IMG/VR virus record: IMGVR_UViG_3300043344_000002
Coordinates: 29,055-93,054 of that record
Direction: 5' to 3' (one strand)
Length of the DNA: 64,000 bases
From: a virus
Taxonomy: Duplodnaviria; Caudoviricetes
A model generated the notes under the pieces. That model was not told the origin of the DNA. It saw only the letters and a program-made list of their open reading frames with translations, and made no database searches. Position 1 is the stretch's first letter. Each line of letters opens with the position of its first letter. A program made the position numbers and the translations under genes. This document shows positions 24,023 through 39,453 of this stretch, one piece after another.

Positions 24023-24072
24023 TCTTCACCACATCGTTTCACATCACGCGCAATCGATCTTAGGAGAGCACG

Positions 24073-24871: not shown

Positions 24872-24881
24872 TCATCACCCA

Positions 24882-24941
24882 GGACGAAACCCACGGCCGT
24901 GAGGTAGCGGGTCCGCCGGTGAAGCCGGTGCTGATGAGTCC
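24882..24941 (+). ncRNA. type II hammerhead ribozyme HHR1
   Basis: GGAC-GAAACCC..GGGTC^-CGCCGG(TGAAG)CCGGTG-CTGATGA-GTCC; predicted cut after 24913. Confidence 0.9.
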
Positions 24942-24958
24942 GATATGAGGAGAGTGCG

Positions 24959-25075
24959 ATGCTCCACAAGAACGTGATGAAGATGTCTGGCGGCAAGGAA
25001 GACGCGGGCACGGCCGACGCGCGCAAGGAGCTGGAGAAGGAGATCGAGAAGCTCGAGAAGCAGCAGGGCCAGTAG
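24959..25075 (+). CDS. 38-aa charged peptide flanked by HHR1 and HHR2
   Basis: GAGGAG RBS; MLHKNVMKMSGG...EKQQGQ. Confidence 0.6.
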   Translation: MLHKNVMKMSGGKEDAGTADARKELEKEIEKLEKQQGQ

Positions 25076-25136
25076 GACGAAACGCGCACGCTGGGAAGCG
25101 TCCGCGTCCACGGGTAGGGCCCGTGCTGACGAGTCC
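25075..25136 (+). ncRNA. type II hammerhead ribozyme HHR2
   Basis: GGAC-GAAACGCG..(GGGA)..CGCGTC^-CACGGG(TAGGG)CCCGTG-CTGACGA-GTCC; cut after 25108. Confidence 0.92.
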
Positions 25137-25148
25137 AGAGGGAGAAGC

Positions 25149-25334
25149 ATGAAAGAGGCAATTCGTCACCTGCTCGCGGCAGCGATGGAGCTGTCGCCGA
25201 CGGGAACCGAGCAGGCCGCATTCAGCGCGATCGCCAATCAGGATCGCCGCCCGGATGACGTCATCGTGATGGATCTCGCAAGCGGGATTCTCACGGGCGT
25301 CTCGCACGGCGCCTGGCCGAAGGTGGGCGACTGA
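25149..25334 (+). CDS. helical repeat-family protein (GxxxG[AN]W), copy 1
   Basis: Similar to the next two ORFs. Confidence 0.7.
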   Translation: MKEAIRHLLAAAMELSPTGTEQAAFSAIANQDRRPDDVIVMDLASGILTGVSHGAWPKVGD

Positions 25335-25756
25335 TGAATGAAGCAGTACGACTACTACTCGACGCCGCGATGTATGTCGCACCAACGAGTGTCGAGCAGG
25401 CGGGGTTCAGCGATCTCGTCAACCGAATGCGGGGTGGCGGCTGCTCGCAGGACTCCATCGTCATCGAGTTGACGAGTGCCATCTTCGCGGGAGTCTCGCG
25501 CGGTGCTTGGCCCACGAGAGACGATAAGTCGATGCCGAAGGAGTCGGCACTCGAGGTGCTACACATGGCGGCGACGCTGGCCCCCGACGAGACCGCCCGT
25601 GCGGGTTTCACCGAGATCATGCGCAAGATGGAGCAGGACAAGAAGTCCTACGCTGACATCTCGCTCATGCTCATCACGACGGTGAGTGACGGCCTGCGCA
25701 CAGGCAACTGGCCGAGGGTGGAGGCGAAGGGCAATGGTCGACCAACCCGCGCCTAA
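25334..25756 (+). CDS. helical repeat-family protein with two internal copies
   Basis: GVSRGAWP and GLRTGNWP repeats. Confidence 0.75.
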   Translation: MNEAVRLLLDAAMYVAPTSVEQAGFSDLVNRMRGGGCSQDSIVIELTSAIFAGVSRGAWPTRDDKSMPKESALEVLHMAATLAPDETARAGFTEIMRKMEQDKKSYADISLMLITTVSDGLRTGNWPRVEAKGNGRPTRA

Positions 25757-25967
25757 GGAAGCGCCGCGTGTCGCAACGAACCTACTCCTGCGCGCAGCGC
25801 TGCTACTCGCACCCGACCAGGCATCGCGCGACTACCTCACGGGTATTGTCACGGCCGGTAGGAAGCTCGCCAAGAAGGTGTCTGAGGCCGATGAGGAGAG
25901 CATCATTCGGTCTCTCGTCGTTGCACTGGACCAGGGAGTTACGCATGGAGCGTGGCAGCGAGACTGA
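25734..25967 (+). CDS. helical repeat-family protein, copy 4
   Basis: AALLLAPD...GVTHGAWQ. Confidence 0.65.
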   Translation: MVDQPAPKEAPRVATNLLLRAALLLAPDQASRDYLTGIVTAGRKLAKKVSEADEESIIRSLVVALDQGVTHGAWQRD

Positions 25968-26120
25968 GCTTAGCTTGACGTTGGCGACTGAACTTAGGGA
26001 AGTCGCCGGACACATCAAAGCTAACAGCGTTGCGTGGGGTCGCGTTACGTCGCAAGAAGCTGAGCACATCGACTGGGAAGCTGCACTCTTGCGTTCTTGG
26101 CACAAGAGAGGCATAGCATA

Positions 26121-26177
26121 GGACGAAACCCCGTCGGGAGACGGTGGTCCGTGGTTCTTGACCACGCTGACGAGTCC
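26121..26177 (+). ncRNA. type II hammerhead ribozyme HHR3
   Basis: GGAC-GAAACC-CCGTC(GGGA)GACGG-TGGTC^-CGTGGT(TCTTG)ACCACG-CTGACGA-GTCC; cut after 26149. Confidence 0.92.
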
Positions 26178-26232
26178 AGTGAGGGACACACACACATGAC
26201 TATCATACATTATCACTTATGTCGGGAGATGC

Positions 26233-26572
26233 GATGAGTGAACGCACAGTGATGCAACTTGCCGCGCTGCTCACATCCGCGGCAAACCGAGGAAGTCACA
26301 ACTTTCTCTTGCCTCAAGAACTCTCCGCACTGCGTGAGGCTGCCGACCTGCTCACGCGAATGGCCGAGCTGACGGCGAGCGCTAACCGTGCTCGTCTCAC
26401 GTCGGCACGGATGTCGAGTCGCGACCAGTTGCTCCTCTGGACCGGCGACGACAGCATGCGACAGAACGTCGCTGCGTACGCCGAGCAGACCGTCTGTAGT
26501 CTTCACTCGGACGTCGAGCGGGGGTCCGAACAGTTCTACTCCTTGGTGTTGGCGGAGGCACTTAGAAGGTGA
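26233..26572 (+). CDS. hypothetical protein
   Basis: GGGAG RBS. Confidence 0.6.
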
Positions 26573-26637
26573 CTGGCGTCGTTGTACACGATCACGCTAG
26601 CCTGATACTGTAGTCTTACCAACACAGCAGCATGTGA

Positions 26638-26883
26638 ATGAAGGAGAGCACCATACACGCACTCACCCTGGACGTCTGCTTCGGGTCGGACGAAGAGGTC
26701 ACCGACGTGGTCGACGCGCTGGTGCACGAGACCGACGTGACGGCCGACTTCACCGGCGTTCACGTGGCCGGTGGCTGGCCTGAGATCAAGTTCTCCGGCA
26801 CGCAGGAGGACCTGATCGTCGTGGCCAACCGCTACGCCGCTGACTCGGGCGACACGAACGAGATCATCTCTCGCATCGTGTGA
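26638..26883 (+). CDS. small acidic early protein (RBS-positioned start codon is ATA at 26653)
   Basis: Own promoter; GGWPEIKFSG motif. Confidence 0.65.
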   Translation: MKESTIHALTLDVCFGSDEEVTDVVDALVHETDVTADFTGVHVAGGWPEIKFSGTQEDLIVVANRYAADSGDTNEIISRIV

Positions 26884-26961
26884 TCGTGGTTTACACCGGC
26901 GTTAAGACCTGTTAGATTAGTCTTAGCGTCGGTGCATGGCGCAGGACACAAGGAGAGTAAG

Positions 26962-27138
26962 ATGAACCAGCGCAAGTACGTGGTGTACGTCCACACAGGC
27001 AAGTTCACCGAGGCCACCGAGCTGTTCCTCTTCGCCGATAGCGAGCAAGACGCGATCGATGAGGTCAGCCGCATGGTGCAGATGCTTGGCGGCGACATGT
27101 CGAACGCAATCAAGGTGACTGCCGCGCTCGACGACTAG
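26962..27138 (+). CDS. small early protein
   Basis: Own promoter and RBS; stop overlaps HHR4. Confidence 0.7.
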   Translation: MNQRKYVVYVHTGKFTEATELFLFADSEQDAIDEVSRMVQMLGGDMSNAIKVTAALDD

Positions 27139-27199
27139 GACGAAACTGCATCATCGGGAGATGACGTGGTCCGTGCGTAATGCGCACGCTGATGAGTCC
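27138..27199 (+). ncRNA. type II hammerhead ribozyme HHR4
   Basis: GGAC-GAAACTGC-ATCATC(GGGA)GATGA-CGTGGTC^-CGTGCG(TAATG)CGCACG-CTGATGA-GTCC; cut after 27171. Confidence 0.9.
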
Positions 27200-27212
27200 G
27201 ATAGGAGAGCAC

Positions 27213-27647
27213 GTGTATTACGTCTTTGAACGCAATGACGGGTACGTCGGTTGCATTAGCTCGAGCGAGAAGCTCGCGCATGGGCAGGCGCCCGAGCGAC
27301 TTCGCGGATGGACACCGTCGGGTTGTGAGCGTGTTTCATTCACTATCCTACTTCAGACTGACGACTGGGATGAGGCAAGCACGTTCATCGACGAGAAGCG
27401 TGGTGTCGGTGATCTTGCGGCCGCGCTTTGCTCAACTCGTGTGCCGCCGGCTGACCCCATTGAGGTGAGGCGTCGCACGATCGACGAGATCGCTACACGA
27501 CTCGCCGCGGTCGAGCGTGAGCTGATTCGACTCGATGCCGAGATCTCGGAGTGCCACGGGTACGCGAGTCCGGCGCAGCTGATGATTGAGCTGGCCGGTG
27601 AGTGCGTGAAGAAGGCCATGCGAGCGAATGGAAAGGCGAAGTCATGA
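27213..27647 (+). CDS. hypothetical protein downstream of HHR4
   Basis: AGGAGAGCAC-GTG start. Confidence 0.7.
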   Translation: MYYVFERNDGYVGCISSSEKLAHGQAPERLRGWTPSGCERVSFTILLQTDDWDEASTFIDEKRGVGDLAAALCSTRVPPADPIEVRRRTIDEIATRLAAVERELIRLDAEISECHGYASPAQLMIELAGECVKKAMRANGKAKS

Positions 27648-27934
27648 GTGAATTTGACAGGCTGATCGGACTGCACGCCGAGAGGTTGCAGCGAGTTTAC
27701 GACGAGCGAACCGCGGGTGAATTCACGTTCACGAGCATTCTTGCTGAGTTCATGGTTGCCTACGAGAGTGCGAAGCTCGTCGAGACGATTGAGCGCATCA
27801 AGGCGACCGAGAAGGAACATCCGATCAAGCACACTGGTGTTAACTTCATCGTCCAGATGCAGAACACGGACACAGCTGCGCTTGACGCACGTGCTAAGAC
27901 TCTGACGGATCTCGGCATTGAGGCGCACCAGTGA
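27644..27934 (+). CDS. hypothetical protein
   Basis: ATGA coupling. Confidence 0.6.
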   Translation: MSEFDRLIGLHAERLQRVYDERTAGEFTFTSILAEFMVAYESAKLVETIERIKATEKEHPIKHTGVNFIVQMQNTDTAALDARAKTLTDLGIEAHQ

Positions 27935-28080
27935 CGAGAGCAGTTTTCGCTCTCGCTACGCTCCTCGCGTTGACCGCCTGCGATCGCCCGCAGCAGACCC
28001 CAGAGCACCCACCGACGGTCCGGCTTGACACGAACTGTCGACCTACTGGTTGCATTGTTCACAGATTCTAGAGGAGTATC

Positions 28081-28308
28081 ATGTTCACGTTTCGTTATGG
28101 TGTCGCGTTCCGCAAGGACACCGACCCGGCGTTCGAGACGCACGTGTCGATCGATCACCCGGCAAATCCGGCCGAGATCAACGATCACGCCGACGTGATC
28201 GCTGATTACGCACGCGCGTACGTCGCCGCGAACTACCCGGAAGTTGAGCTTGACGGGTACTCGCCATATTGCATCATGCACAACAAGACGACGATCAAGA
28301 AGTTCTGA
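28081..28308 (+). CDS. small acidic early protein (Y.x.F family)
   Basis: GAGGAG RBS; paralog pattern. Confidence 0.7.
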   Translation: MFTFRYGVAFRKDTDPAFETHVSIDHPANPAEINDHADVIADYARAYVAANYPEVELDGYSPYCIMHNKTTIKKF

Positions 28309-28320
28309 GGGAATAGCGCG

Positions 28321-28545
28321 ATGAACATTCCGCCGTACACGCTCACGTTCGAGAACGACTACGACAGCATCTTCACTCTGGTGATGAAGGTTGATTTACC
28401 GAAGATGCCGTGGGAGATCGACGATAAGTACGATGCGCTCACTGAGCACGCGTACGATCGCGCCGCTGATACGTCCGTGGTACTGGGTGACTACACGCTT
28501 AGGTCAATCTCCTATGGTGGGATGGAGATCGCCTCGTTTGATTAG
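28321..28545 (+). CDS. small acidic early protein (Y.x.F family)
   Basis: Paralog pattern. Confidence 0.7.
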   Translation: MNIPPYTLTFENDYDSIFTLVMKVDLPKMPWEIDDKYDALTEHAYDRAADTSVVLGDYTLRSISYGGMEIASFD

Positions 28546-28626
28546 CATGATCAAGTAGTTTACATTGATCACGTTATCCTAGTACTGTAATCCTAGCACG
28601 CTGAACCACCCGGAACCTAGGAGAGC

Positions 28627-28875
28627 ATGATGGCTGACTACATCGTTCACTTCAAGCACGACGAGAGCAGTGATGTTAAGATGCAGGTGCGGGTGCCGTA
28701 CGATGTTGACCCCGCCGTCGCGGCCGATGACTACGAGATCATCGTGGAGCTGGCATACGGCATCATGCGTGAAAAGTCGACAGCCATCGACATCAACGTC
28801 CTCGGTCTCGAAGTGCGTGACTTCGACGCGATCAAGATCATGCACAACGACGACTTGATTATGGACTTCGCGTAA
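28627..28875 (+). CDS. small acidic early protein (Y.x.F family)
   Basis: Own promoter and RBS. Confidence 0.75.
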   Translation: MMADYIVHFKHDESSDVKMQVRVPYDVDPAVAADDYEIIVELAYGIMREKSTAIDINVLGLEVRDFDAIKIMHNDDLIMDFA

Positions 28876-28897
28876 GCACAACAACGGGAGTAAGTTA

Positions 28898-29008
28898 ATG
28901 GTTCTCGCACAGGTGATGTTCGAGTTCGGTGGCGAGCAGAAGGGTGGCATTATTATCTTGCTGCTTGTCGGTCTGCTGCTCTTCGTTTTGCTGGGAAAGA
29001 AGCGGTGA
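28898..29008 (+). CDS. 36-aa single-TM peptide
   Basis: MVLAQ...LLLFVLLGKKR; GGGAG RBS. Confidence 0.55.
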   Translation: MVLAQVMFEFGGEQKGGIIILLLVGLLLFVLLGKKR

Positions 29009-29087
29009 TGGGAGGGTCGTTGCACTCCACTATTTAGTGCGGTAGAGTATTCATACCGACCCGAACACAGGAACACAGGAGAGCACG

Positions 29088-29381
29088 ATGAGTGACTTCG
29101 AGTACTCGTACACGCTGATCTTTCGGCACGACAACCACCCCAGCGTCAAGATCACGATCGACGTCGAGTCGGATGACAGTCCCGAGTACCTGCGTGAGCA
29201 CCCGCTCGCTCTCGATCTGCTGGAGGCGGCGGACGACTTCATCGAAAGTGCCGAACTGAGCATGTACGACTACACGCTCGTTGCGGTCATGCGGGACAGT
29301 GAAACGGTGCTTCGTTACGATGATGGATCTGTGGACTTGACGAACACGGTTAAGAACGATGAGGACCGCGACAATCGCTAA
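29088..29381 (+). CDS. small acidic early protein (Y.x.F family)
   Basis: Own promoter and RBS. Confidence 0.75.
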   Translation: MSDFEYSYTLIFRHDNHPSVKITIDVESDDSPEYLREHPLALDLLEAADDFIESAELSMYDYTLVAVMRDSETVLRYDDGSVDLTNTVKNDEDRDNR

Positions 29382-29463
29382 GCGTGATTGCCTATTTGCA
29401 TTGATCACGCTTCTTGGTACTGTAGTCTTAACACGCTGAACCACCGAATTCTAGGAGAGCATC

Positions 29464-29742
29464 GTGAACGACATTCGTCCCCGCACTCCGATCAACACGC
29501 TCACGATCCCCACCTTCGAGCACTTCATTCTTGAGTCCGACGGGACGGAAGACGCGTTTCGTATCTTCGCCGCAGACGGCTTCACACTTCTGGGAATGGT
29601 GGAGCGGCTCCCGAAGTACCGTGGCAAGATCTCTCGTCAGTGGAATGTGAGTGGGTTTTCCAAGTACGGTACGTTCGTCTTCAACTTCGAGCAGGTCGAG
29701 CAGATCGTCAACAAGTGGCTTGCTGACAATCGAGTCCTGTGA
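29464..29742 (+). CDS. early protein
   Basis: Own promoter and RBS. Confidence 0.7.
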   Translation: MNDIRPRTPINTLTIPTFEHFILESDGTEDAFRIFAADGFTLLGMVERLPKYRGKISRQWNVSGFSKYGTFVFNFEQVEQIVNKWLADNRVL

Positions 29743-29794
29743 GACGTCTGTCCTCGCTGGACAACTGACACGTGGTATGATACCCGTAATCACA

Positions 29795-29847
29795 GGTCGA
29801 AACGCCTGGGAAGGCGTCGCCGGGAAAGAGACCGGCCCGAAGAGACC
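29795..29847 (+). ncRNA. type II hammerhead ribozyme, core variant (CCGAAGA), HHR8
   Basis: GGTC-GAAACGCCT(GGGA)AGGCGTC^-GCCGG(GAAAGAGA)CCGGC-CCGAAGA-GACC. Confidence 0.72.
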
Positions 29848-29875
29848 CATTTCAACGACAAGTGAGGTATGTATT

Positions 29876-30034
29876 ATGAAGCGAGGTCTCATCATTCTCG
29901 CGATCATCGTGGGTACGTTCACGATCATCGAGCTGATCATCCCGGGGCACTTGACCGCGTTCACCACCTACCTGTCCACCATCGGCAATCTGTTCACCGC
30001 CAAGTACGGTGAGCCGAGCCTTCCCACGTCCTAG
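29876..30034 (+). CDS. small membrane protein downstream of HHR8
   Basis: MKRGLIILAIIVG; GAGGT RBS. Confidence 0.55.
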   Translation: MKRGLIILAIIVGTFTIIELIIPGHLTAFTTYLSTIGNLFTAKYGEPSLPTS

Positions 30035-30736
30035 CACCTCCCCCGAGCGGCCCTGTCCGAAGTAGCTGCAACTACTTTGGCCGGGGCCTTAGGTGGTTGA
30101 GAGGAGGTCTCAGATGCCCGCTCAGGGGAGACTGAAGCCCTTTTGGAGATGGTTGGCAGTTCGACTAGCCGCTCTGGAGGTCCAGCGAATCAAGATCGAC
30201 CTCGGCTTTGACGCAATCATGTGGGACGCCGAGATTCCACCTAAGATTCTCGTTGACGCACAGGAACAGTGGAAGGTGGTGTTAGCAGGTGGCCGGATTG
30301 ACGAACCGTGAACTCATTGCGCAGCTGAGTGAACTTGATCCCAACGCTGAGGTCGTAATCCATAGTGGGTGCGGTGTCACTAGTGCTGAGTTCTCCACTC
30401 CGTCAGAGTGGAATCCCGACACGAAGAATTACGAGCTACGCTCGCAGGCGCAGATCACGCTTGAGAACGACTGCTACTGTGGATACGGTGGTTAAGCGAT
30501 GGTCTGTCCTGATCGTGAACGCAGAAATTCATTAAGTGACGATGAGTTTTGGAAGGAGGTGTTTGGAATCCCGCTTGATATTGAGGGTCCACTGACTGAG
30601 TCTGAAGCTGAGGCAATTGAGAACGATTGGTACATGGTGAAGCCGTGCGTTCAGTGCGGTGCCACTGGACCCTGCGCATACGACGCCGAGGGACGTCCCC
30701 TCATCCACGCTGATTCACAGGAAATAGGAGAGTAAG

Positions 30737-31195
30737 ATGAGATACCACAGGCGTAGTCCTGGCTTAAGTGTTGGGCAAGCTGTAGTCGGTGTTGGCTGTG
30801 GTGGTGTGCTCTTGCTTACCATCGGTCTGCTCGTTGCCGCGGCAGTCGGTGCTGATGACGCTGATGCCGTTGCGGTATGCACCAGCTCGGACGGCTTCAC
30901 ACGCGTTGACGACTCGCAGTGTGGAGACTTTGGCGATGATGGTGGTGTCATCTTCCCCGGCGGATAGCACTACATGATCTTTGACACGCGCACTTACCGT
31001 GGTGACATTCCCGCGGTGGGGCAGAAGATGCCAGTGGGGAATCCCGCCGGCTACGTTCGCACGTACAACACGTTCAGCACGGGTAGGTCCGTCATCACGA
31101 AACCACCGTCCACGGGCGGTAAGACGAGCACCATCACGCGTGGCGGATTCGGTGTGAAAGTTGGCACGAGCGCAGGAACGAGTGGAGGATCATGA
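30737..31195 (+). pseudogene. membrane/lipoprotein-like gene interrupted by an in-frame TAG at 30965
   Basis: TM, C...RVDDSQC, [TAG], HYMIF...PAVG...ITRGGFG reads as one protein across the stop. Confidence 0.55.
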
Positions 31196-31584
31196 CCGAC
31201 GACTTTGAAGTTGAGCTTGGCGACAACATGAAGTGGCGTGAACAGCCTCCTGCCCGCGAATTCACGAGTGAACAAGAAGAGACCGACGCGATCGACGATC
31301 TCTTCGCGACGCTCATTCCCGATGATTATGTCCTGCCGCCGCGTGAGTGCTGTGGTGCTGAGGACGACGCGAGCATTGATATCGCAGTTGATTGCGAGAA
31401 GGGCAACTGCACCTGGCTGTACTGCCGCTGCGGGCGGTCGACGCAGTCTGGATATGGCGTCTATGGATGCACCTGCGCGGAGAACACGGGTGGGCACTGG
31501 CGAGTGTTTGAGCGGAAGATGATTTCCGTCAAGAAGGTTGCACTGTCAACCAACAAGAAGCGAGCGAGGCAGGGGCATGGCTGA
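31192..31584 (+). CDS. Cys-rich hypothetical protein
   Basis: GGAGG RBS; multiple Cys pairs. Confidence 0.6.
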   Translation: MTDDFEVELGDNMKWREQPPAREFTSEQEETDAIDDLFATLIPDDYVLPPRECCGAEDDASIDIAVDCEKGNCTWLYCRCGRSTQSGYGVYGCTCAENTGGHWRVFERKMISVKKVALSTNKKRARQGHG

Positions 31585-32654: not shown

Positions 32655-33094
32655 TGAAGGATTTCAGGACACCAGCGTGGGAAAGCATCTACGCAGAAGA
32701 AAGTCGTAGCGCACGCTGGCGACGAAAAGATGAGACCACGTGCACGATCACGTTCAAGTGTCTCATCTGCTTTGATCACGGCATCACAGATCGCATGCAA
32801 CACGACATCGAGCGAAGGCATAACTCGATGCGTAAGGGACAACTTCATCGTGATCCGCTAGGCGTGATGCTCGAGATTGTTGACTGTTTGTGGGGTGATG
32901 TGGTAAAGTCTTCACTACCAACCCGTGAAGATTCATAGGAGAACACGTCATGAGCCGCCATCGTTCGCACGTCGTCAAGCCACTTCGCCTCAGCAGCGTC
33001 GTCAACGCCATCGTCGCATCCGCGCTCGCCGGTGTCACGCTTGGCGTCATCAAGCCGCTGGGTCCGCTCTTCGCTTACATGATGGGGATGTGAC

Positions 33095-33280
33095 ATGAAG
33101 ACGACGTGGGAATCTGGCCTCGAGCAGGGCAAGCCGTTTTACGCGATGTCCAACGCCGAGTTGAAGACGGCCTGTCACGAGCGCATGTTGCGGACGGTAG
33201 GAGACCGTGCGACGGTGGTTGCGCGACTGGACCGTCACGTCGCACGCGGTGGTGGAGTTATCCCGGGGAGGGTAACATGA
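33095..33280 (+). CDS. SAP-domain-like small DNA-binding protein
   Basis: MSNAELKTACHERMLRTVGDRATVVARL matches the SAP consensus. Confidence 0.65.
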   Translation: MKTTWESGLEQGKPFYAMSNAELKTACHERMLRTVGDRATVVARLDRHVARGGGVIPGRVT

Positions 33281-33707
33281 GTTTTACGCAGTTGATTTTC
33301 ATGGAGTGGCTTCGCGCGCAGGAGAACGTTAACGATGAGCTCGTCGATGCGATCTTGAATTACGAATCGGAGGGAGACAGCGAATTCGGCTGTGTCCATT
33401 CTGCTGAAGAGATCGAGCAGGGCTTGTGTCGTACCGTTAAGCCACACGACATTCGCGCACTGCAGATCATCGCAGTGCAGGCAGGATGGCCGAAGGAATG
33501 GAAGTTTTCTCGTTTGACGTGACGGTCTCCACACACGACAACCTGAAGCGTGGCATCACCGCGATGGGGTTACCACCGTACGATCATCACCGGGTCGTAG
33601 TTGCAGCTGATGACCACACCGAAGCATTCTACACCGCGTTCGCAATGCTGTACGTCCGTGGCTACTACGTCACGGGCGTGTACGATAGGATCTAGGAAAG
33701 AAGGATA

Positions 33708-33986
33708 ATGACCTACACGAGTAATGCTCCCGAACCGACGACGCACTACGTCGCTCGCATCGTCATCGAGCGTGTTGACCACAGGCAGGTGGAGACACGC
33801 AACGGAATCGGTGTTGGGAAGATCATGGAGCCGAAGCGCACCGTCACCGAGCTGGCGACGCTGACGCTCAAGTCCGACGAGCTTAACACGCTTGTCACAA
33901 AGGTGGGCATGCACCTCGAACTCGTCGAAGAGATCGAGGCCGTCGACCCGGTGCGGCCGAAGGGCGTGAGGTCCAGTGGGTCGTAG
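33708..33986 (+). CDS. hypothetical protein
   Basis: AAGGA RBS; codon bias. Confidence 0.6.
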   Translation: MTYTSNAPEPTTHYVARIVIERVDHRQVETRNGIGVGKIMEPKRTVTELATLTLKSDELNTLVTKVGMHLELVEEIEAVDPVRPKGVRSSGS

Positions 33987-34506
33987 TGGTTGGGTTGAGA
34001 TGGAGCCCGTCGTCGCACGAGAGTTCGACCAAGTGATGATGTGCCATCCCAATCCGGACGTTGTGTGTCTGGAAGGTGGATGCATTCACTGTGTCGATAG
34101 CGACACGTGGTGGACCACTGAAGCACTTGAGGTGTACGCGTTCCAGTGCGATCAGAAGCACTGGCTCGCGTACCTATACGGTCGTCAGCACTACTGGTGG
34201 AATCAGCGTAAGAAGATGGGTGACGCCGGCGAGCCGTTCTTCGGGGTGGGTTAATCCACTCGATGTTAACAGCCTATTGCTGTGTTATTGTTGGCCTGGA
34301 GGTAACGTACTCCAGTGAGGAGATTCACCGTGCTTGAGGGCAAGGTGACCGACTACGGCGATCTTCTCCACGTCGAAAGATGGATCGTCAAGGGTCGCCG
34401 GCTGCGATTCACGTGGCACATTGGCCCGGTGGAGCGTACCACCGCGGCGGATCGTCAGCCGGGCACGTCAACTCCGGACAACGCACAGCGAAGGGCAGAC
34501 ATCGTT

Positions 34507-34827
34507 ATGGATCTCAAGGCTGACCAGAAGGTCGCGCTCACCGGGCAGTGGCGTGACGAGATGCAGAACCCCGTTCCCGCACCCGCTGGCGCGTCGGTCG
34601 TGTTCACCGTTGACAACGGTACGGTCATCAACCTCGTCGACAACGCTGATGGCACCGCCCTGGCGACCGCCGTCGGCGTCCTCGGCACCGCGAACGTGCA
34701 CGCGGTCGCGAACGCACCGGGCCTCCCGGAGGCGACCGGTGATCTCCAGATCGTCGTTGTCGCGGGTGACGCCCAGCGCTTCGACATCGTCCCGGGCGTG
34801 CCGGAAGAAGCCACCCCGGACGTGTAG
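34507..34827 (+). CDS. small beta-rich (Ig-like) protein
   Basis: Strong codon bias from MDLKADQ; may start upstream at 34315. Confidence 0.55.
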   Translation: MDLKADQKVALTGQWRDEMQNPVPAPAGASVVFTVDNGTVINLVDNADGTALATAVGVLGTANVHAVANAPGLPEATGDLQIVVVAGDAQRFDIVPGVPEEATPDV

Positions 34828-34843
34828 TGCTGATGGAGTAGAG

Positions 34844-34882
34844 TTGAGGCGGGCCGATCACTTAGCGGTCCGCCTCACTTGT
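34844..34882 (+). terminator. Rho-independent terminator
   Basis: TGAGGCGGGCCG/CGGTCCGCCTCA + CTTGT. Confidence 0.65.
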
Positions 34883-34932
34883 GCTTGAAAGATTTTGTTT
34901 ACACAGGTCCCATCGCCTGTTAGGATAAGACT

Positions 34933-35295
34933 ATGAACGTGACCACGACCGCCCCGATCACGGCCCCCGCGCCAATCCCGTGCCTCGAGTGCGGGCGGAT
35001 GCTTCGCTCCGTCAAGTCCATCAAGCGCGGTCGCGGCGCGGCCTGCCAGACGAAGGTCAACAAGGCAGCTAAGACTGTCGACCTGAGCGATTTCAAGCCG
35101 GCACAGGTCCAGTCGGCACTGGACCTGATCGAGGACGCGGCGATCGTCAAGGTTCGCCCGAACGTGTTCCGTTCGGTTTCGACCGATGGCATGTCCGAAT
35201 ACCTCACGCACCCGGCGGCGTGTAACTGCCCTGCTGGACTCAAGGCCCGTAACTGCTATCACCGCGCCGCGGTCATCATCCTGCTCGCGGCCTAA
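34933..35295 (+). CDS. DUF6011-like Zn finger + SWIM domain protein (leaderless)
   Basis: CLECGRML...RGRGAAC; CNCPAG...CYH; ATG 6 nt after the -10 box, no RBS. Confidence 0.75.
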   Translation: MNVTTTAPITAPAPIPCLECGRMLRSVKSIKRGRGAACQTKVNKAAKTVDLSDFKPAQVQSALDLIEDAAIVKVRPNVFRSVSTDGMSEYLTHPAACNCPAGLKARNCYHRAAVIILLAA

Positions 35296-35595
35296 GAAGT
35301 AAGGGAATCTCATGTCTCACCTGAAGTGCATGCACGAGCGTCGAGTGGTTGTCGTTCGTGACCGGGAAGAGAACGCCGTCATTCGACACCGGAGTGACGG
35401 CGGCAAGTGCGACTCGCGATACGTCGCCATCGATAAGGTGGTGTATGATCCCACCACGCACGGCGCCGCAGTCACTGCGGGCACGTCGCAGGATGTGGTG
35501 TTCGGGCCGCTTGGTCCGGTGATCACCGTCGGCACGTTCGCCGAAGCGGAAGAGCGGCAGGCGAAGCCGGTTCGCCGGGTGAAGAAGCACAAGCG

Positions 35596-35861
35596 ATGAG
35601 CGGCGCTTTCGTACTTGCGCAGGGACAGCAGCATACCGAACTCAACGGTGTCGGTTCGTTCGTCATCGTGCTTGCCGCACTTCTCGTGGTCGCAGCACTC
35701 TTTGGCAGGAAGAAGTAATATACGTGTTGATGTACATTGTGCTGTTACAGAGTCCGGCGACTCCCGCCGAATACGACCCGAGTGCTGTACGCACTGCAGT
35801 TATTGTGATGGTGGTGTTGTCGCTATTGCTCTTTCTCTTTGGCGGAAAGAAGCGCAAATGA
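35596..35861 (+). other. two tandem single-TM peptides (35596-35718, 35724-35861)
   Basis: End in AALFGRKK and FLFGGKKRK. Confidence 0.55.
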
Positions 35862-35990
35862 ACATTGCGCAGGACATGAACACCGTCATTGAGACGAGCC
35901 AGCACTCACCCGCGACTGACGCACTTGGCGTTGTGTTGATGATCGTTGTTACCCTCATGGTCTTCAGCTCTTCAACAAGGATGGGTGGAA

Positions 35991-36599
35991 ATGAACGATC
36001 AAGACATGTACAATCTCTCCACACCGACTCACCCAGACCACCTCGCTGACATCACCGCGGGACAGCGATCGCCGGTACGTACTCATACAGAGGTAGACCC
36101 CGGATACATTCCTACCCAGGCAGAGCGCGACGCGAACGACGCACTCTACGCTGCGACGTTCACCGAAGAACAGCTGTCGGTCACGAAGCCACTCACTACG
36201 TCAGCGAACTTCACTGATGCGCTCGCCGGGAGTGAGGCATTTCACCAGGCTCTCACCGCAAAGCTGACGGAGCGTCAGGCGCCGGTACGTCCGGAGTACA
36301 TCGCCGGTTCACGCACCGACCCGTACGGGATGCGCTTTCCGTGGGGTCCCATTACCGAGCAGCATCAAATCGGGAACTACACGATCCTCGAGTTCCTGGA
36401 GGACACGAGCACGTACAATGATCCGGTGGCGTGGGCACGACACGGTCGCACGCTGTATCACGTCTACGTCGACGGGAAAAACACGAGTGTCTCGGCGCTC
36501 TCACTGGACGCTGCACTCGCTGGTGCGATCGCGTACCGACGTGAAGGTCCGAACTCGCACGCGGGTGACTACTTCATGAGGATGGTGGGCGGTGACTAG
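35991..36599 (+). CDS. hypothetical protein
   Basis: Long ORF; FPWG...SLDAALAGAIAY. Confidence 0.65.
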   Translation: MNDQDMYNLSTPTHPDHLADITAGQRSPVRTHTEVDPGYIPTQAERDANDALYAATFTEEQLSVTKPLTTSANFTDALAGSEAFHQALTAKLTERQAPVRPEYIAGSRTDPYGMRFPWGPITEQHQIGNYTILEFLEDTSTYNDPVAWARHGRTLYHVYVDGKNTSVSALSLDAALAGAIAYRREGPNSHAGDYFMRMVGGD

Positions 36600-37239
36600 G
36601 CCATCCATGCCGTCCACGCAGTGGATGATTCTTAAGCCTGCTGACGAAGGAAACAATAGCGGTGGGTACTTGGTCGTCAAGAGAATTGACTACGTAAAGT
36701 ACCTCACCGGTAAAATCGGTGAACTTCCTCATCGTCGATTTGTTCTGTATCTGCAGGCAGAGATCCACTGCGTCTACCTCAACCGTGGGCGGTACGGATG
36801 ACGCTTAGAGGCTGCTCAGACTCTCACCAGGGCCCGAGCAGCCTCGAGTGGTAGTACCTTATAGCCAGCAATTCTTACAAAATCCAAGGAGGTCTGAAGC
36901 CGTGGGACTTTCCTATTTGCGTTAGTCACAGTAGCCTGTTACTGTAGTCTTACAGGCAAAACAGCAAAACGAAAACAGGAGAGCATCATGTTGAGCACGA
37001 CTTACACGCCTACCAACCCAATGGTCACCATCACCAATGACCACGGTGACATCGAGCACATGCGTAAGTCGCTGTTCGTCGAGCACTTCCAGGGTCTCGG
37101 CTGGTGGATCACCGAGACCCCACACGCGTAGGTAGGCCGGTTGCTCCATGTGCTCGTGCAGCCCCGGTCACGTCCTCAGCACTCACTGGACCCTCGTCGG
37201 TTCTCCCGTGGATGTCTGGTTCGAGCGGACCAACTAATA

Positions 37240-37289
37240 GGCCGAAACGTCGGGAGACGTCTGCTGGTGTTGCCAGCGCTGATGAGGCC
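37240..37289 (+). ncRNA. type II hammerhead ribozyme HHR5
   Basis: GGCC-GAAACGTC(GGGA)GACGTC^-TGCTGG(TGTTG)CCAGCG-CTGATGA-GGCC; cut after 37261. Confidence 0.92.
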
Positions 37290-37307
37290 AAGAGTGAGGA
37301 TAGACTG

Positions 37308-37763
37308 ATGACCGATGTTGCGGAAACCTTCATCGAAATCCTGAAGAAGGCACGCGTGGAACTGACCACGGGCTTGGGCAAGGACCTGCCCGCGGGTGAT
37401 GCGTTCGAGACGAGGGAAGCACTCGAGCAGCGCGTCTCGCAGATCGAGATCGAGATCGTGGAGCCACTGCGCGCACTGATCGACGACCTCACGGAATACG
37501 TCGGTGAGCTGAGTGGCAAGTGCGATGATGTTGTCACTGCGGTGGGAAACGCCGACACCGCATCCGACGACTTCGACTCGGCGAACGAAGCGCGTGAGAC
37601 GTTCAATGGTGATGACGAGAACGAAGAGTTCGCTGCGCTCGAGAGCGATGTCACCGACGCCGAAAACGCGATGGAAGAAGCGGACGAGGAGTTGTCCGGT
37701 GATCGTGACGGACTCATCGACGCCATCGCGACGCTCGTCGAGCTGATCGGTGAGTGTAAGTGA
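37308..37763 (+). CDS. highly acidic coiled-coil protein
   Basis: GAGGA RBS right after HHR5; Asp/Glu-rich. Confidence 0.75.
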   Translation: MTDVAETFIEILKKARVELTTGLGKDLPAGDAFETREALEQRVSQIEIEIVEPLRALIDDLTEYVGELSGKCDDVVTAVGNADTASDDFDSANEARETFNGDDENEEFAALESDVTDAENAMEEADEELSGDRDGLIDAIATLVELIGECK

Positions 37764-38118
37764 AAAGCGTTCACCTCAAGAAGATTGCCAGTCGGATTGA
37801 TCGACTCACGTTTCACTTCGGTGATGAAGCACGTGTATGGCGCATGCTGGTTCGCACGGTGCCGCACATCCTCCCGCGTGACGCGTCGAACCGGGCGAAC
37901 GATCTCACCCGTGTCTTGAACGACGTGCCTGAACTCATCGCAACGATTCACGCATTGAGAGAGGAGCGTACTGCACTTCGTGGAGTCATTCATGAGATGC
38001 ACATCCAGTTGGAGAGTACGGTTACCGAAGCGCATGATTCTAAGACTGAAGACTTGGGAGATGACGACGGTCTCGGATCCTGAGATAACGAAACACCAAC
38101 GCATCGAGATGACTGAAA

Positions 38119-38168
38119 GGACGAAACCCCGGGAGGGGTCGGCACGTGATGCGTGCCCTGACGAGTCC
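38119..38168 (+). ncRNA. type II hammerhead ribozyme HHR6
   Basis: GGAC-GAAACCCC(GGGA)GGGGTC^-GGCACG(TGATG)CGTGCC-CTGACGA-GTCC; cut after 38140. Confidence 0.93.
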
Positions 38169-38179
38169 AGGAAGGTATT

Positions 38180-38599
38180 ATGACGGTAAAAGTTACGCTC
38201 ACCGTGGAGAGCACAGGCCACGCTGGCGACAAGAACGAAATGACGAAGTCTTTGGAGACGGGCAACGTCAACGAACGCTTCTACCCGTCGCAGATCGAGC
38301 ACATGGGTGCGCAGTTGACCATATGGGCTTCAGGTAGGATGACGAACCTCATCGGTGGCAAGGACAAGACTCTTTCCGACCAGGGCGCGATGATGCTCGT
38401 CGAGCAGCGTGCGCTCATCGCCGCGGTGGAACAGGCTCAGGCGTTCCGTGACTTCGAGAAGACGCAGGGTGATCAGGTGCTCGTCGACCGCGAGACGCTC
38501 GAATTCTTGCGTAAGCGAGCCGCGCGCCTGACTGCCCTTGAAGTCGCGGGCGTGGACAACTGGGAAGGGATGGACCACGTCAAGTTCCCGGAGGACTGA
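38180..38599 (+). CDS. hypothetical phage protein
   Basis: RBS after HHR6; C-terminal LTALEVAGVDNWEG motif. Confidence 0.7.
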   Translation: MTVKVTLTVESTGHAGDKNEMTKSLETGNVNERFYPSQIEHMGAQLTIWASGRMTNLIGGKDKTLSDQGAMMLVEQRALIAAVEQAQAFRDFEKTQGDQVLVDRETLEFLRKRAARLTALEVAGVDNWEGMDHVKFPED

Positions 38600-38675
38600 G
38601 GCGTAGTTTGCATAGCGACTTGAGTCCTGATAGGATTACCTTGTAAGCGAAAACGACAACAAGGAGTGGTATTCG

Positions 38676-38915
38676 GTGAAGGTTTTCCTCACTGGACTCG
38701 CGGTCATTGCCGCGCTGGCGGGTGTCACTGCCTGCAACGAACCCGCGGCGAAGACGTACGTGACCAAGAAGGAGGGCGCGGTCAACACGGCGCTCTGCCT
38801 GGGTGACACGCCGTACATCATGCGCGTCCGGAAGGGCACCGCTGGTGAGACGATCGTCTGCGTGACTGAGCAGACGTTCAACAAGTACAACGTCGGGAAC
38901 GAGTACACGGGATGA
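38676..38915 (+). CDS. lipoprotein
   Basis: VTAC lipobox; paralog at ~39057-39311 (LIAC...KYNIGDEY). Confidence 0.7.
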   Translation: MKVFLTGLAVIAALAGVTACNEPAAKTYVTKKEGAVNTALCLGDTPYIMRVRKGTAGETIVCVTEQTFNKYNVGNEYTG

Positions 38916-39403
38916 TGAAGTGGGCCGCCGTCGCTGTTGTGTCGGTGGCCCGCTTCACCGGTGGCTGCAATCACACGTTCATTCAGGGCACGTGCGTATC
39001 GCCTGTGGTTGCCGCGCAGCACCCAATTGGCTCGCGTTACGCGGCCTAGGAGACAAGTGCACTTACGTGTAGTCATTGTCATGCTCGTCGCGATTAGCAC
39101 GCTCATCGCGTGTGGTGACACGACGAATGGCGTGGTGATCGAGAAGTACGAAGCTCGTGCCGGTGTTCCACAGACGTTCGGTTGCTTGAACACTGAGTGG
39201 CTGCTCGTCATAGACCAGGGCGAGCGCATCAAGTCAAAGAGTCGCTTCGTGAAGAAGTGCGTGTCGTACGTTGACGCGACGAAGTACAATATCGGTGATG
39301 AGTACCCGTAAAGCACCAATGGCGTGGACAGCCACAGAAGAATCACCATTAGCGCAGCGGGCTGGTTGGCTGCATACCGGTCAAGATGATGGTGATCGCC
39401 AGA

Positions 39404-39453
39404 GTCCGAAACGCCGGGAGGCGTCCGTGAGTAAGTCTCACGCTGATGAGGAC
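39404..39453 (+). ncRNA. type II hammerhead ribozyme HHR7
   Basis: GTCC-GAAACGCC(GGGA)GGCGTC^-CGTGAG(TAAGT)CTCACG-CTGATGA-GGAC; cut after 39425. Confidence 0.92.

What the first reader, a model, noticed from the sequence alone, without database searches (positions are those of the whole stretch)
24882..39453. Eight type-II hammerhead ribozymes punctuate the early transcripts of a phage that also encodes RtcB
Seen: eight intergenic sense-strand elements (24882, 25075, 26121, 27138, 29795, 37240, 38119, 39404) with stemII-GAAA-stemIII-GUC-stemI-CUGANGA-stemII. Stem sequences differ between copies but pairing is kept (stem II GGAC/GUCC, GGCC/GGCC, GUCC/GGAC, GGUC/GACC). Seven copies have a GGGA loop on stem III and seven a 5-nt U-initiated loop I. 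Each ends about 11-28 nt before a start codon. Known: hammerheads leave 2',3'-cyclic phosphate and 5'-OH ends, the substrates of RtcB (10234-11445). Inference: a programmed mRNA-processing system that cuts polycistrons into 5'-OH, hairpin-capped, nuclease-resistant units and/or religates them. Isolated phage hammerheads are known; I do not know a description of such a gene-delimiting array with a cognate ligase.
Basis: partly seen in the sequence, partly recalled or inferred. Interest (0 to 1): 0.95.

Follow-up and report, generated by a model that had tools for sequence, protein, structure and literature searches.

The report
Phage hammerhead ribozyme array; RtcB link unsupported
Eight genuine self-cutting hammerhead RNAs sit between small genes of an uncultivated soil phage and probably chop its long transcripts into gene-sized messages, a layout known in phages since 2011; broad surveys give no support for the idea that the phage's RtcB ligase is their partner.

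Summary
Eight type II hammerhead motifs lie at the stated coordinates, all on the + strand. They are the only ones in the 93-kb genome. Catalytic cores are intact in seven; h29795 has the known weak U4C variant. The stems covary strongly. Each fills the gap between a stop codon and the next Shine-Dalgarno/start.

The array is not new. Perreault et al. 2011 described hammerhead clusters flanking phage genes and proposed processing into gene-length mRNAs, and even ligation or circles. This scan has already met such arrays in at least 26 other genomes. Other viral records carry 7-9 copies.

- 1 of 44 hammerhead-bearing viral records encodes RtcB.
- 0 of 47 RtcB-bearing records has a type II hammerhead.
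- RtcB lies on the opposite strand, 13 kb away, on the arm that carries the phage tRNAs.

Array and RtcB do co-occur in all four members of this phage's own lineage. That is one inherited event, so a lineage-specific link cannot be excluded.

Useful extras: this subclass scores below Rfam's threshold; [gene + ribozyme] cassettes duplicate as units; in one relative a promoter replaces a ribozyme at the same slot. No RNA data exist.

The parts
24882..24941 (+). Type II hammerhead h24882. Stem II GGAC/GUCC, long stem III with a GUGA loop, core CUGAUGA. Predicted cleavage after C24913.
   Evidence: 47.9 bits, E 3e-14. The MFE fold is the three-way junction. Orthologs sit at the same slot in G046, L262, L263, L265 and L268.
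25075..25136 (+). Type II hammerhead h25075. Core CUGACGA. The TAG stop of the upstream 38-aa ORF overlaps its first G. Predicted cleavage after C25108.
   Evidence: 47.8 bits. Orthologs in L262, L265 and L268. With flanks, the MFE is a competing fold.
26121..26177 (+). Type II hammerhead h26121. Core CUGACGA. The upstream TAG stop is embedded in it. Predicted cleavage after C26149.
   Evidence: 45.1 bits. With flanks, the MFE is a competing fold.
27138..27199 (+). Type II hammerhead h27138. Core CUGAUGA. It follows ORF 26932-27138, whose TAG stop is embedded in it. Predicted cleavage after C27171.
   Evidence: 50.2 bits. The MFE and the centroid are both the hammerhead fold, z -2.2. The [ORF + HHR] cassette is triplicated in relative L268.
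29795..29847 (+). Variant type II hammerhead h29795. Stem II GGUC/GACC, 5-bp stem I with an 8-nt loop, core CCGAAGA (U4C). Predicted cleavage after C29818.
   Evidence: 37.1 bits. Orthologs are in L262 (canonical core) and L268 (U4C). A competing fold sequesters the SD and start codon, z -3.66. U4C is a known weak but viable natural variant.
37240..37289 (+). Minimal 50-nt type II hammerhead h37240. Stem II GGCC/GGCC. Predicted cleavage after C37261.
   Evidence: 75.7 bits. The probable ortholog is G046 9448-9399, with the same stem II.
38119..38168 (+). Minimal 50-nt type II hammerhead h38119. Predicted cleavage after C38140. It lies 11 nt before a 139-aa ORF that weakly matches RecBCD-inhibitor PHROGs.
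   Evidence: 74.8 bits; MFE is the hammerhead fold.
39404..39453 (+). Minimal 50-nt type II hammerhead h39404. Stem II GUCC/GGAC. Predicted cleavage after C39425. It lies 17 nt before an HNH-endonuclease-like ORF.
   Evidence: 74.0 bits; MFE is the hammerhead fold.
22631..26918 (+). Series of repeated sigma-70-like promoters, TTTACA-N14-TGN-TAGATT, at 22631, 23110, 23685, 24555 and 26890. A 2-mismatch copy lies at 34898. They drive the small-gene block that the hammerheads punctuate.
   Evidence: 6 matches against 0.2 expected, all on the + strand. The order 'promoter series, then hammerhead series' is conserved in relatives.
10234..11445 (-). RtcB RNA ligase gene. Considered as a partner of the hammerheads but not shown to be one.
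   Evidence: Pfam PF01139, E 1.2e-115. It lies on the opposite strand, 13.4 kb from the first hammerhead. The association tests are negative.
7300..7371 (-). tRNA-Ile(UAU), on the same leftward arm as RtcB. A candidate canonical RtcB client.
   Evidence: Further tRNAs (Glu, Met) and tRNA-like elements lie on the same strand upstream of the window.

Best explanation
The eight elements are functional type II hammerhead ribozymes. They belong to a compact, phage-borne subclass with these features:
- a 4-bp open stem II;
- a 6-bp stem I capped by a U-N-A-N-G loop;
- stem III capped by a stable tetraloop;
- an invariant A just 5' of stem II;
- no loop I-tail pseudoknot.

They lie in the rightward block of about 70 small genes of a 93-kb tailed phage whose host is probably an actinomycete. 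Host RNA polymerase starts at a series of repeated sigma-70-like promoters. Past the last of these, read-through transcripts are cut co-transcriptionally at C17 of each ribozyme, exactly between one gene's stop codon and the next gene's Shine-Dalgarno sequence.

The upstream RNA then ends in the stem III hairpin with a 2',3'-cyclic phosphate. The downstream mRNA starts with a 5'-OH stem I hairpin followed by a free ribosome-binding site. This uncouples the stability and translation of neighbouring cistrons, like a natural ribozyme insulator.

The phage RtcB most likely serves its usual role of sealing broken tRNAs or tRNA-like RNAs. It is not a dedicated partner of the ribozymes.

Shown here: motif, covariation, placement, conservation and the lack of a general RtcB association. 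Inferred: self-cleavage in vivo, the fate of the products and the role of RtcB.
For: Motif and statistics:
- Exactly eight hits, all on the sense strand, against 0.28 expected.
- A model built from three copies finds the other five.
- Covariation in the eight copies: 99.1% paired, 10 of 15 pairs compensatory. In 24 copies from the clade: 99.4% paired, 11 of 15 compensatory, 0 of 500 shuffles.
- Five of eight adopt the hammerhead junction as MFE or centroid even with native flanks.

Placement:
- The upstream stop lies -1 to 10 nt from the element in five of eight.
- An SD and start codon follow 11-21 nt downstream in seven of eight.
- The same rule holds in 179 other viral copies: a stop triplet within 12 nt upstream in 86%, and an SD-like motif in the 20-nt tail in 65% against 15% upstream.

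Conservation:
- The ribozyme after the 81-aa ORF is kept in five relatives whose proteins are 49-78% identical, with compensatory stem changes.
- [ORF + HHR] cassettes are tandemly triplicated in L268.
- In L264 the same slot holds the clade's promoter motif instead.
- The order 'promoters, then ribozymes' is conserved.

Precedent:
- Perreault 2011 showed in vitro cleavage of three prophage arrays and proposed this function.
- D. vulgaris type II hammerheads next to phage genes cleave in vivo.
- The 5' end of an HF1/HF2 halovirus transcript maps to within 3 nt of its hammerhead site.

RtcB:
- It is in 1 of 44 hammerhead-bearing records, and hammerheads are in 0 of 47 and 0 of 6 RtcB-bearing records.
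- It lies on the opposite strand, on the arm that carries the tRNAs.
Against: - No RNA evidence for this phage; cleavage is inferred.
- All copies score below Rfam's gathering threshold, 27 bits or less against 37.
- The pseudoknot that gives many type II hammerheads fast kinetics is absent. Activity at cellular Mg2+ therefore rests on an untested tertiary contact.
- Three copies have competing MFE folds when flanks are included.
- h29795 has a weakened U4C core, and the G046 ortholog of h24882 has C3U.
- Within this phage's own lineage the array and RtcB always co-occur, in 4 of 4 members. A lineage-specific functional link is therefore not excluded.
- The host may supply RtcB in phages that lack it, which weakens the negative association test.
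Confidence: 0.72

Rival explanations
1. Cleavage-ligation system. The ribozymes excise gene cassettes whose 5'-OH and 2',3'-cyclic-phosphate ends are rejoined by the phage RtcB. The result would be circular or reshuffled mRNAs, a prokaryotic counterpart of retrozyme/viroid-like circles.
For: - The end chemistry matches RtcB substrates (established biochemistry).
- RtcB circularises hammerhead-processed RNAs in animals (PMC7229834).
- All four lineage members with arrays also encode RtcB.
- In G046, RtcB lies on the ribozyme strand between the two copies.
- HF1-group haloviruses also carry both.
- Copies 1-4 share the GGAC/GUCC stem II, so hybrid ribozymes could form across an excised segment.
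Against: - There is no general association: 1 of 44, 0 of 47 and 0 of 6.
- Records with 7-9 copies (G001, G030, G007) have no RtcB, although these records are incomplete.
- The lineage co-occurrence is one inherited event.
- RtcB's position and strand are not conserved relative to the array.
- GGAC/GUCC is simply the subclass consensus, found in 153 of 189 copies.
- In copies 5-8, stem II covaries within each ribozyme. Hybrids between neighbours would have only 2-3 of 4 pairs. Selection therefore acts on cis folding, not on trans reassembly.
- A circle rebuilt this way restores a complete ribozyme and could cut itself again.
- Perreault 2011 looked for circular or spliced products and found none.
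Confidence: 0.07
2. Passenger elements. The hammerheads spread with small [ORF + HHR] cassettes by duplication and recombination. They persist as near-neutral or selfish passengers, or merely as stable hairpins, and self-cleavage does not matter for phage gene expression.
For: - Tandem triplication of the cassette in L268.
- Copy number varies from 2 to at least 8 among close relatives, and genes next to orthologous ribozymes turn over.
- Some cores are weakened: U4C and C3U.
Against: - The catalytic core is strictly conserved while all three stems drift by compensatory change. That pattern points to selection for catalysis rather than for a hairpin.
- Placement is precise and strand-specific, from stop codon to SD, across unrelated phages.
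- The tertiary-type positions A(-1) and loop I U/A are conserved at 76-97%.
Confidence: 0.1
3. Conditional switches. Some copies are regulated ribozymes rather than constitutive cutters. Alternative folds with flanking mRNA hide the SD or block stem II until cleavage, or until a factor such as translation of the upstream ORF shifts the balance.
For: - For h29795, the fold with flanks pairs the 5' flank with the SD/AUG region and replaces stem II. It has z -3.66, reached by 0 of 200 shuffles, and this copy also has the attenuated U4C core.
- h25075 and h26121 also have competing MFE folds.
- Upstream stop codons are embedded in the ribozyme's 5' edge, so terminating ribosomes would touch stem II.
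Against: - Only one copy shows a statistically unusual alternative fold.
- No conserved aptamer-like domain is present.
- Five copies fold directly into the active junction.
- I did not test whether the alternative pairings covary in the orthologs.
Confidence: 0.08

Closest known systems
Clustered hammerhead ribozymes flanking genes in prophages (Perreault et al. 2011, PLoS Comput Biol, PMC3088659). Examples: the A. tumefaciens triple array around ardA, C. scindens, A. caulinodans.
   Same: Several same-strand hammerheads, including type II, flank single genes or short gene blocks in phage DNA. The proposed function is processing of long phage transcripts into gene-length mRNAs. The paper also raises ligation and circles.
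   Different: - There are eight copies in one near-complete 93-kb virion-type genome, against three per tested array.
- This subclass lacks the loop I-tail pseudoknot that the paper highlights.
- No cleavage has been tested here.
Rfam RF02276 Hammerhead_II
   Same: Same core, same topology (stem II open), and the conserved unpaired A 5' of stem II (alignments).
   Different: - All eight copies fall below the gathering score: 24.5-27 bits for the three that are reported, against 37.
- None of the copies in ten other array-bearing viral loci passes either.
- These copies have a shorter loop I and lack the conserved 3' tail.
HF1/HF2 halovirus hammerhead ('HHphage'). These viruses also encode RtcB (PMC3088659, PMC7230728).
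   Same: A virus-encoded hammerhead lies 13 nt upstream of a start codon in an early polycistronic transcript. The transcript's 5' end maps to within 3 nt of the cleavage site. RtcB is present in the same genome.
   Different: It is an archaeal virus with a single variant-core copy. No RtcB-ribozyme link is proposed there either, and related proviruses lack RtcB.
Desulfovibrio vulgaris type II hammerheads next to phage-like genes (cyPhyRNA-seq, PMC8782182)
   Same: Type II hammerheads in phage-like gene contexts, two of them about 300 nt apart. Cleavage was shown in vivo and in vitro.
   Different: They have a longer 3' fragment (39 nt against 28 nt here) and lie in a bacterial chromosome. They do not form a large array.
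Retrozymes and viroid-like circular RNAs: hammerhead cleavage followed by RtcB or tRNA-ligase circularisation (PMC7229834, PMC4918200)
   Same: Two ribozyme cuts give 5'-OH and 2',3'-cyclic-phosphate ends that an RtcB-type ligase can seal.
   Different: Those are eukaryotic, non-coding, type I/III elements with demonstrated circles. Here the segments are protein-coding, there is no circle evidence, and there is no RtcB association outside one lineage.
RiboJ-type synthetic ribozyme insulators (Lou et al. 2012; cited from my own knowledge, not checked here)
   Same: A hammerhead is placed just upstream of a ribosome-binding site. Cleavage removes the upstream RNA context and leaves a hairpin-capped 5'-OH mRNA.
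   Different: RiboJ is an engineered type III ribozyme from sTRSV with an added hairpin. These elements are natural, type II and arrayed.

Membership tests
Hammerhead ribozyme, type II | Conserved catalytic core: C3 U4 G5 A6 N7 G8 A9, G12 A13 A14, the A15.1-U16.1 pair, and a cleavage-site nucleotide 17 that is not G. | tested here: met
   Seven of eight have CUGA(U/C)GA, GAA, the A...U pair closing stem III, and C17. h29795 has CCGAAGA (U4C), a known natural variant.
Hammerhead ribozyme, type II | [quoted passage not shown] | tested here: met
   Decomposition. The junction is the MFE or centroid fold in five of eight with native flanks.
Hammerhead ribozyme, type II | Helices supported by covariation. 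| tested here: met
   Eight copies: 99.1% paired, 10 of 15 pairs compensatory. 24 clade copies: 99.4% paired, 11 of 15. In both cases 0 of 500 shuffles reach this, and slid controls give 25-43%.
Hammerhead ribozyme, type II | Rfam RF02276 gathering score (37 bits). | tested here: not met
   The best three score 27.0, 24.9 and 24.5 bits; the other five are not reported. The same holds for other phage arrays. I read this as a limit of the model, because every structural and core criterion is met.
Hammerhead ribozyme, type II | A loop I-3' tail pseudoknot. It is present in the majority of type II representatives but is not obligatory. | tested here: not met
   Complementarity between loop I and the tail or the leader is no higher than in shuffles, both in this phage and in 181 other viral copies. 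Instead A(-1) is conserved at 97%, loop I U at 97% and loop I A at 76%.
Hammerhead ribozyme, type II | Site-specific self-cleavage. | not testable with these tools
   No public RNA run holds this phage. In vitro transcription is needed.
Ribozyme plus RtcB cleavage-ligation system (retrozyme-like) | The ligase gene co-occurs with the ribozyme array across independent genomes. | tested here: not met
   RtcB is in 1 of 44 hammerhead-bearing viral records of at least 28 kb. Hammerheads are in 0 of 47 RtcB-bearing records of at least 40 kb by R1 and by RF02276, and in 0 of 6 close RtcB relatives. Co-occurrence is confined to one lineage, G000, G046, Logan 94.6 kb and JGI 95 kb.
Ribozyme plus RtcB cleavage-ligation system (retrozyme-like) | Conserved genetic linkage or co-orientation of the ligase and the array. 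| tested here: not met
   In G000, G070, L266 and L267, RtcB is on the opposite strand in the replication arm. In G046 it has moved into the small-gene block.
Ribozyme plus RtcB cleavage-ligation system (retrozyme-like) | Ligated or circular junction RNAs. | not testable with these tools
   No RNA holder is listed.

The most novel reading that the evidence does not exclude
In this actinophage lineage, and perhaps independently in HF1-type haloviruses, a virus-encoded RtcB re-seals or circularises the mRNA segments released by the hammerhead array. That would give the phage ligase-controlled, exonuclease-proof circular or re-joined messages. It would be the first ribozyme-plus-ligase mRNA processing pathway in a bacterial virus.
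Probability: 0.06. Interest if true: 0.85.

Novelty: new member of a known kind. Interest (0 to 1): 0.3.

Why it matters
The biological role of the thousands of bacterial and phage hammerheads is still unproven 15 years after their discovery. This genome and its three long relatives offer a clean comparative model for it:
- mapped promoters followed by 2 to at least 8 ribozymes;
- orthologous slots where a ribozyme, a promoter or nothing is present;
- [gene + ribozyme] cassettes that duplicate as units.

Two practical points follow.
- Rfam's Hammerhead_II threshold misses this whole phage subclass, so routine annotation under-counts these ribozymes.
- The attractive idea of a ribozyme with a cognate ligase can now be set aside as a general rule. 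RtcB and type II hammerheads do not travel together in viral genomes.

If the mRNA-processing model holds, these are natural versions of the ribozyme insulators used in synthetic biology.

Tried and rejected
- **Rfam at gathering threshold.** No hammerhead was reported. I set this aside as a sensitivity problem after the structural and covariation tests.
- **Megablast against INPHARED.** Window 24000-40000 gave no match.
- **Relatives of ORFs inside the array.** ORFs 27213-27647, 37308-37763 and 39471-40118 have none in viral contigs. The 81-aa ORF alignment found nothing in metagenome contigs.
- **Public RNA runs.** No RNA holder is listed; the only holder is one soil-metagenome DNA run, probably the source. 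Read laying was therefore not used, and there is no expression evidence either way.
- **Loop I-tail or loop I-leader pseudoknot.** No signal above shuffles.
- **G070 (RtcB 86% identical, about 80% nucleotide identity).** The contig ends at window position about 20,060, before the array, so it says nothing about hammerheads.
- **Searching the Logan record directly.** The record is not held. I walked along it with the look-up of encoding contigs instead.
- **PHROG and Pfam scans of the RtcB neighbours.** No archease, RtcA, Pnkp or other RNA-repair genes were found, only DUF7873 and DUF732.
- **Sensitivity caveat.** The fast first look of the genome search missed 8 of 44 known-positive records at E <= 1e-4. 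The 0 of 47 result therefore bounds hammerhead prevalence among RtcB phages at roughly below 8%, not at zero.

Full report
**1. Source**

The window is bases 29055-93054 of a single 93,054-bp IMG/VR virus record. The record is linear, 98% complete by CheckV, and 55% G+C.

It is a tailed phage. It encodes:
- DNA polymerase A;
- a primase-polymerase/D5 helicase;
- ThyX;
- a T4-type large terminase;
- a MuF-ADP-ribosyltransferase fusion.

It has only distant relatives among isolated actinophages.

Host hints point to Actinomycetota, possibly Pseudonocardiaceae:
- a DUF732 protein;
- the nearest cellular RtcB homologs, 70-72% identical, come from Saccharothrix and Actinosynnema.

The only public run that holds the sequence is a soil-metagenome DNA run.

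**2.

All eight elements read, on the + strand: stem II 5' strand - GAA - stem III (closed by A15.1-U16.1) - C17 - stem I - CUGA(U/C)GA - stem II 3' strand.

- **Count.** A structure-aware scan of the whole genome on both strands returns exactly these eight. It returns none on the other strand. Dinucleotide shuffles give a mean of 0.28.
- **Independent recovery.** A covariance model (R1) built from only the three 50-nt copies recovers the other five at E 1e-10 to 1e-14. The next best hit in 64 kb scores 14 bits. The whole-genome search gives the same eight.
- **Covariation.** It is strong: 99.1% of cells pair and 10 of 15 pairs show double changes. 0 of 500 column shuffles reach this, and slid controls pair at 29-40%.
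The stem II variants, the GGGA loop on stem III in seven copies (GUGA in the eighth), the U-initiated 5-nt loop I in seven copies and the predicted cleavage positions are all right.

Three corrections:
- h29795 has a CCGAAGA core (U4C).
- RtcB is on the minus strand.
- Rfam's Hammerhead_II model does not call any copy at its curated threshold. Only three sub-threshold hits appear, at 24.5-27 bits against 37.

**3. Anatomy and context**

The elements fill the intergenic gaps.
- The upstream stop codon is embedded in, or lies within 10 nt of, the 5' edge in five of eight copies.
- A Shine-Dalgarno sequence and start codon follow 11-21 nt after the 3' edge in seven of eight.
- For h26121 a 12-codon mini-ORF starts 21 nt downstream and the 117-aa ORF 41 nt downstream.

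The block from about 21 to 47.5 kb holds about 70 small + strand ORFs.

A repeated promoter-like motif, TTTACA-N14-TGN-TAGATT, occurs six times against 0.2 expected, always on the + strand. The sites are 22631, 23110, 23685, 24555, 26890 and 34898. The ribozymes begin right after the gene served by the promoter at 24555.

With native flanks, five of eight fold into the hammerhead junction as MFE or centroid. Three have competing folds. In h29795 the competing fold pairs the 5' flank with the SD/AUG region (z -3.66).

**4. A coherent, widespread subclass**

Many of them carry several same-strand copies.

From these loci I extracted 189 distinct type II hammerheads, 179 of them outside this phage and G046.
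- The stem I hairpin is 17-18 nt long in 174 of the 189.
- The loop I consensus is U-N-A-N-G (U 97%, A 76%).
- The base 5' of stem II is A in 97%, and a fifth stem II pair is avoided.
- Stem III usually ends in a GNRA or UNCG tetraloop.
- There is no loop I-tail pseudoknot above shuffle expectation.

Context is equally regular in the 179 others. A stop triplet lies within 12 nt upstream in 86%, often TAG or TAA using the conserved A. An SD-like motif lies in the 20-nt tail in 65%, against 15% upstream.

None of the copies in ten array-bearing loci reaches Rfam's gathering score. Standard annotation therefore misses this subclass.

**5. Relatives**

TerL-based relatives comprise 25 searchable records, with TerL 57-89% identical. 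They contain hammerheads in only one, G046 (84 kb, complete, 66% G+C). G046 has two copies.

Homologs of the 81-aa ORF that precedes h24882, and of RtcB, led to two more full-length relatives:
- a 94.6-kb Logan contig (loci L262 and L266);
- a 95-kb JGI contig (loci L267 and L268).

They have at least 5 and at least 6 copies in the parts I could reach.

- **Positional conservation.** The ribozyme after the 81-aa ORF is retained in G046, L262, L263, L265 and L268, although the protein is only 49-78% identical. The stems change by compensatory substitutions. Over 24 clade copies pairing is 99.4%, with 11 of 15 covarying pairs.
- **Promoter in place of a ribozyme.** In L264 the same slot holds the clade's promoter motif instead.
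- **Cassette duplication.** In L268 three paralogous ~57-aa ORFs, homologs of window ORF 26932-27138, each carry their own ribozyme in a 253-nt tandem repeat.
- **Shared layout.** The order 'promoter series, then ribozyme series' is common to the clade.

These patterns argue for selection on catalysis and for a role in defining transcript units.

**6. The RtcB link**

| Direction of test | Result |
|---|---|
| RtcB in hammerhead-bearing viral records of at least 28 kb | 1 of 44; 1 of 18 among those at least 90% complete |
| Type II hammerhead in RtcB-bearing records of at least 40 kb, by R1 or RF02276 | 0 of 47; 34 of them at least 90% complete |
| Hammerhead in close RtcB relatives | 0 of 6 |

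- The records with 9, 9 and 7 copies (G001, G030, G007) are among those that lack RtcB.
- The 1 of 44 rate is about the background of roughly 1.4% RtcB-positive records in INPHARED.
- The same R1 search lights up in positive controls. Its fast filter missed 8 of 44 known positives, so the bound is roughly below 8%, not zero.

In this genome RtcB lies 13.4 kb from the first ribozyme, on the other strand. It sits in the leftward replication and nucleotide-metabolism arm. That arm also carries tRNA-Ile, and further left tRNA-Glu, tRNA-Met and tRNA-like elements. The position is the same in G070, L266 and L267, but in G046 the gene has moved into the small-gene block.

Inside the lineage, array and RtcB always co-occur, in four of four members. 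Both are absent from the 24 more distant TerL relatives. RtcB divergence (73-90%) matches that of the core genes and the ribozymes are syntenic. This is therefore one inherited state, not independent evidence.

Stem II covariation in copies 5-8 keeps pairing within each ribozyme, while hybrids between neighbouring ribozymes would be mismatched. The shared GGAC/GUCC of copies 1-4 is simply the subclass consensus, found in 153 of 189 copies. Nothing therefore points to selection for end-joining of excised segments.

**7. What is known**

Perreault et al. 2011 (PMC3088659) reported the following:
- They proposed processing of long phage transcripts into operon- or gene-length mRNAs.
- They raised successive cleavage and ligation giving spliced or circular RNAs, and did not detect such products.
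- They showed in vitro cleavage for three arrays.

The same paper notes that U4C is a weak but viable variant.

Other precedents:
- The HF1/HF2 halovirus hammerhead lies 13 nt before a start codon, and the mapped 5' end of the transcript lies within 3 nt of the cleavage site. Those viruses also encode RtcB.
- D. vulgaris type II hammerheads next to phage genes cleave in vivo.
- RtcB-dependent circularisation after hammerhead cleavage is established for animal retrozymes.

I found no paper that links phage hammerhead arrays to phage RtcB.

This scan has already recorded such arrays in at least 26 other genomes. Its follow-ups reached the same 'known since 2011' verdict.

**8. Verdict**

The processing interpretation is plausible, but it is already in the literature. 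The cognate-ligase idea is not supported as a general rule and remains only a low-probability, lineage-specific possibility.

The finding is a clean, well-resolved new example of a known kind. Side results worth keeping are the subclass signature that Rfam's threshold misses, the duplication of [gene + ribozyme] cassettes, the interchange of promoter and ribozyme at one slot, and the negative RtcB association test.

Noticed in passing
window 22631-22659, 23110-23138, 23685-23713, 24555-24583, 26890-26918, 34898-34926 (+): A repeated extended -10 promoter motif, TTTACA-N14-TGN-TAGATT, occurs 6 times against 0.2 expected, all on the + strand. In relatives the same motif forms a series of single-gene units that ends where the hammerhead series begins.
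   Followed up: partly
L268 15655-16395: Three tandem paralogous [~57-aa ORF + hammerhead] cassettes repeat with a period of about 253 nt. They are homologous to window ORF 26932-27138 plus h27138. The ribozyme duplicates together with the gene upstream of it, and the TAG stop is embedded in its 5' edge.
   Followed up: partly
L264 2514-2588: In this relative the intergenic slot after the 81-aa ORF holds the clade's promoter motif (TTTACA...TGTTAGATT) instead of the hammerhead found there in five other relatives.
   Followed up: no
L004, L009, L010, L011, L016, L017, L034, L051, L054, L058 (IMG/VR loci): None of the roughly 50 type II hammerheads in these array-bearing loci reaches Rfam RF02276's gathering score. 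The compact phage subclass has a 4-bp stem II, a U-N-A-N-G loop I, a conserved A(-1) and no pseudoknot. Rfam-based annotation misses it systematically.
   Followed up: partly
window 29780-29871: With its flanks, h29795 prefers a fold that pairs the 5' flank with the SD/AUG region and replaces stem II (z -3.66). This copy has the attenuated U4C core, as does one of its two orthologs. It may be a conditional ribozyme or translational switch.
   Followed up: no
G046 (L169-L173) compared with the window: These sister phages have syntenic genomes and 50-78% identical proteins, yet they differ by 11 points in G+C (66% against 55%). RtcB has moved from the leftward replication arm into the small-gene block in G046.
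   Followed up: partly
window 53198-55804 (+): An 868-aa protein fuses a phage Mu F-like head-morphogenesis domain to a C-terminal ADP-ribosyltransferase exoenzyme domain (Pfam PF04233 and PF03496). It is a MuF-toxin type fusion in the head module.
   Followed up: no
window 46578-49347 (+): An NAD-dependent epimerase/dehydratase gene and a UDP-glucose/GDP-mannose dehydrogenase gene lie directly upstream of the terminase. They are sugar-nucleotide metabolism genes carried by the phage.
   Followed up: no
genome 14672-17087 and 36354-36853 (- strand); window 7300-7799: Relaxed ARAGORN finds tRNA-Glu, tRNA-Met and tRNA-Ile, plus tRNA-like elements with aberrant anticodon loops. All are on the same leftward arm as RtcB. 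They are plausible natural clients of the ligase, as earlier notes on this genome suggested.
   Followed up: partly
L170 11667-11785 (G046): A weak, sub-threshold YrlA (Y RNA-like) match, 24.6 bits against 69, lies among a tRNA cluster in the sister phage. Y-RNA-like genes accompany rtcB/rsr operons in some bacteria. It is probably noise, and I did not examine it.
   Followed up: no
window 26199-26237: A 12-codon mini-ORF with a good SD starts 21 nt after h26121 and overlaps the start of the 117-aa ORF at 26219. It could be a leader peptide or a translational-coupling device.
   Followed up: no
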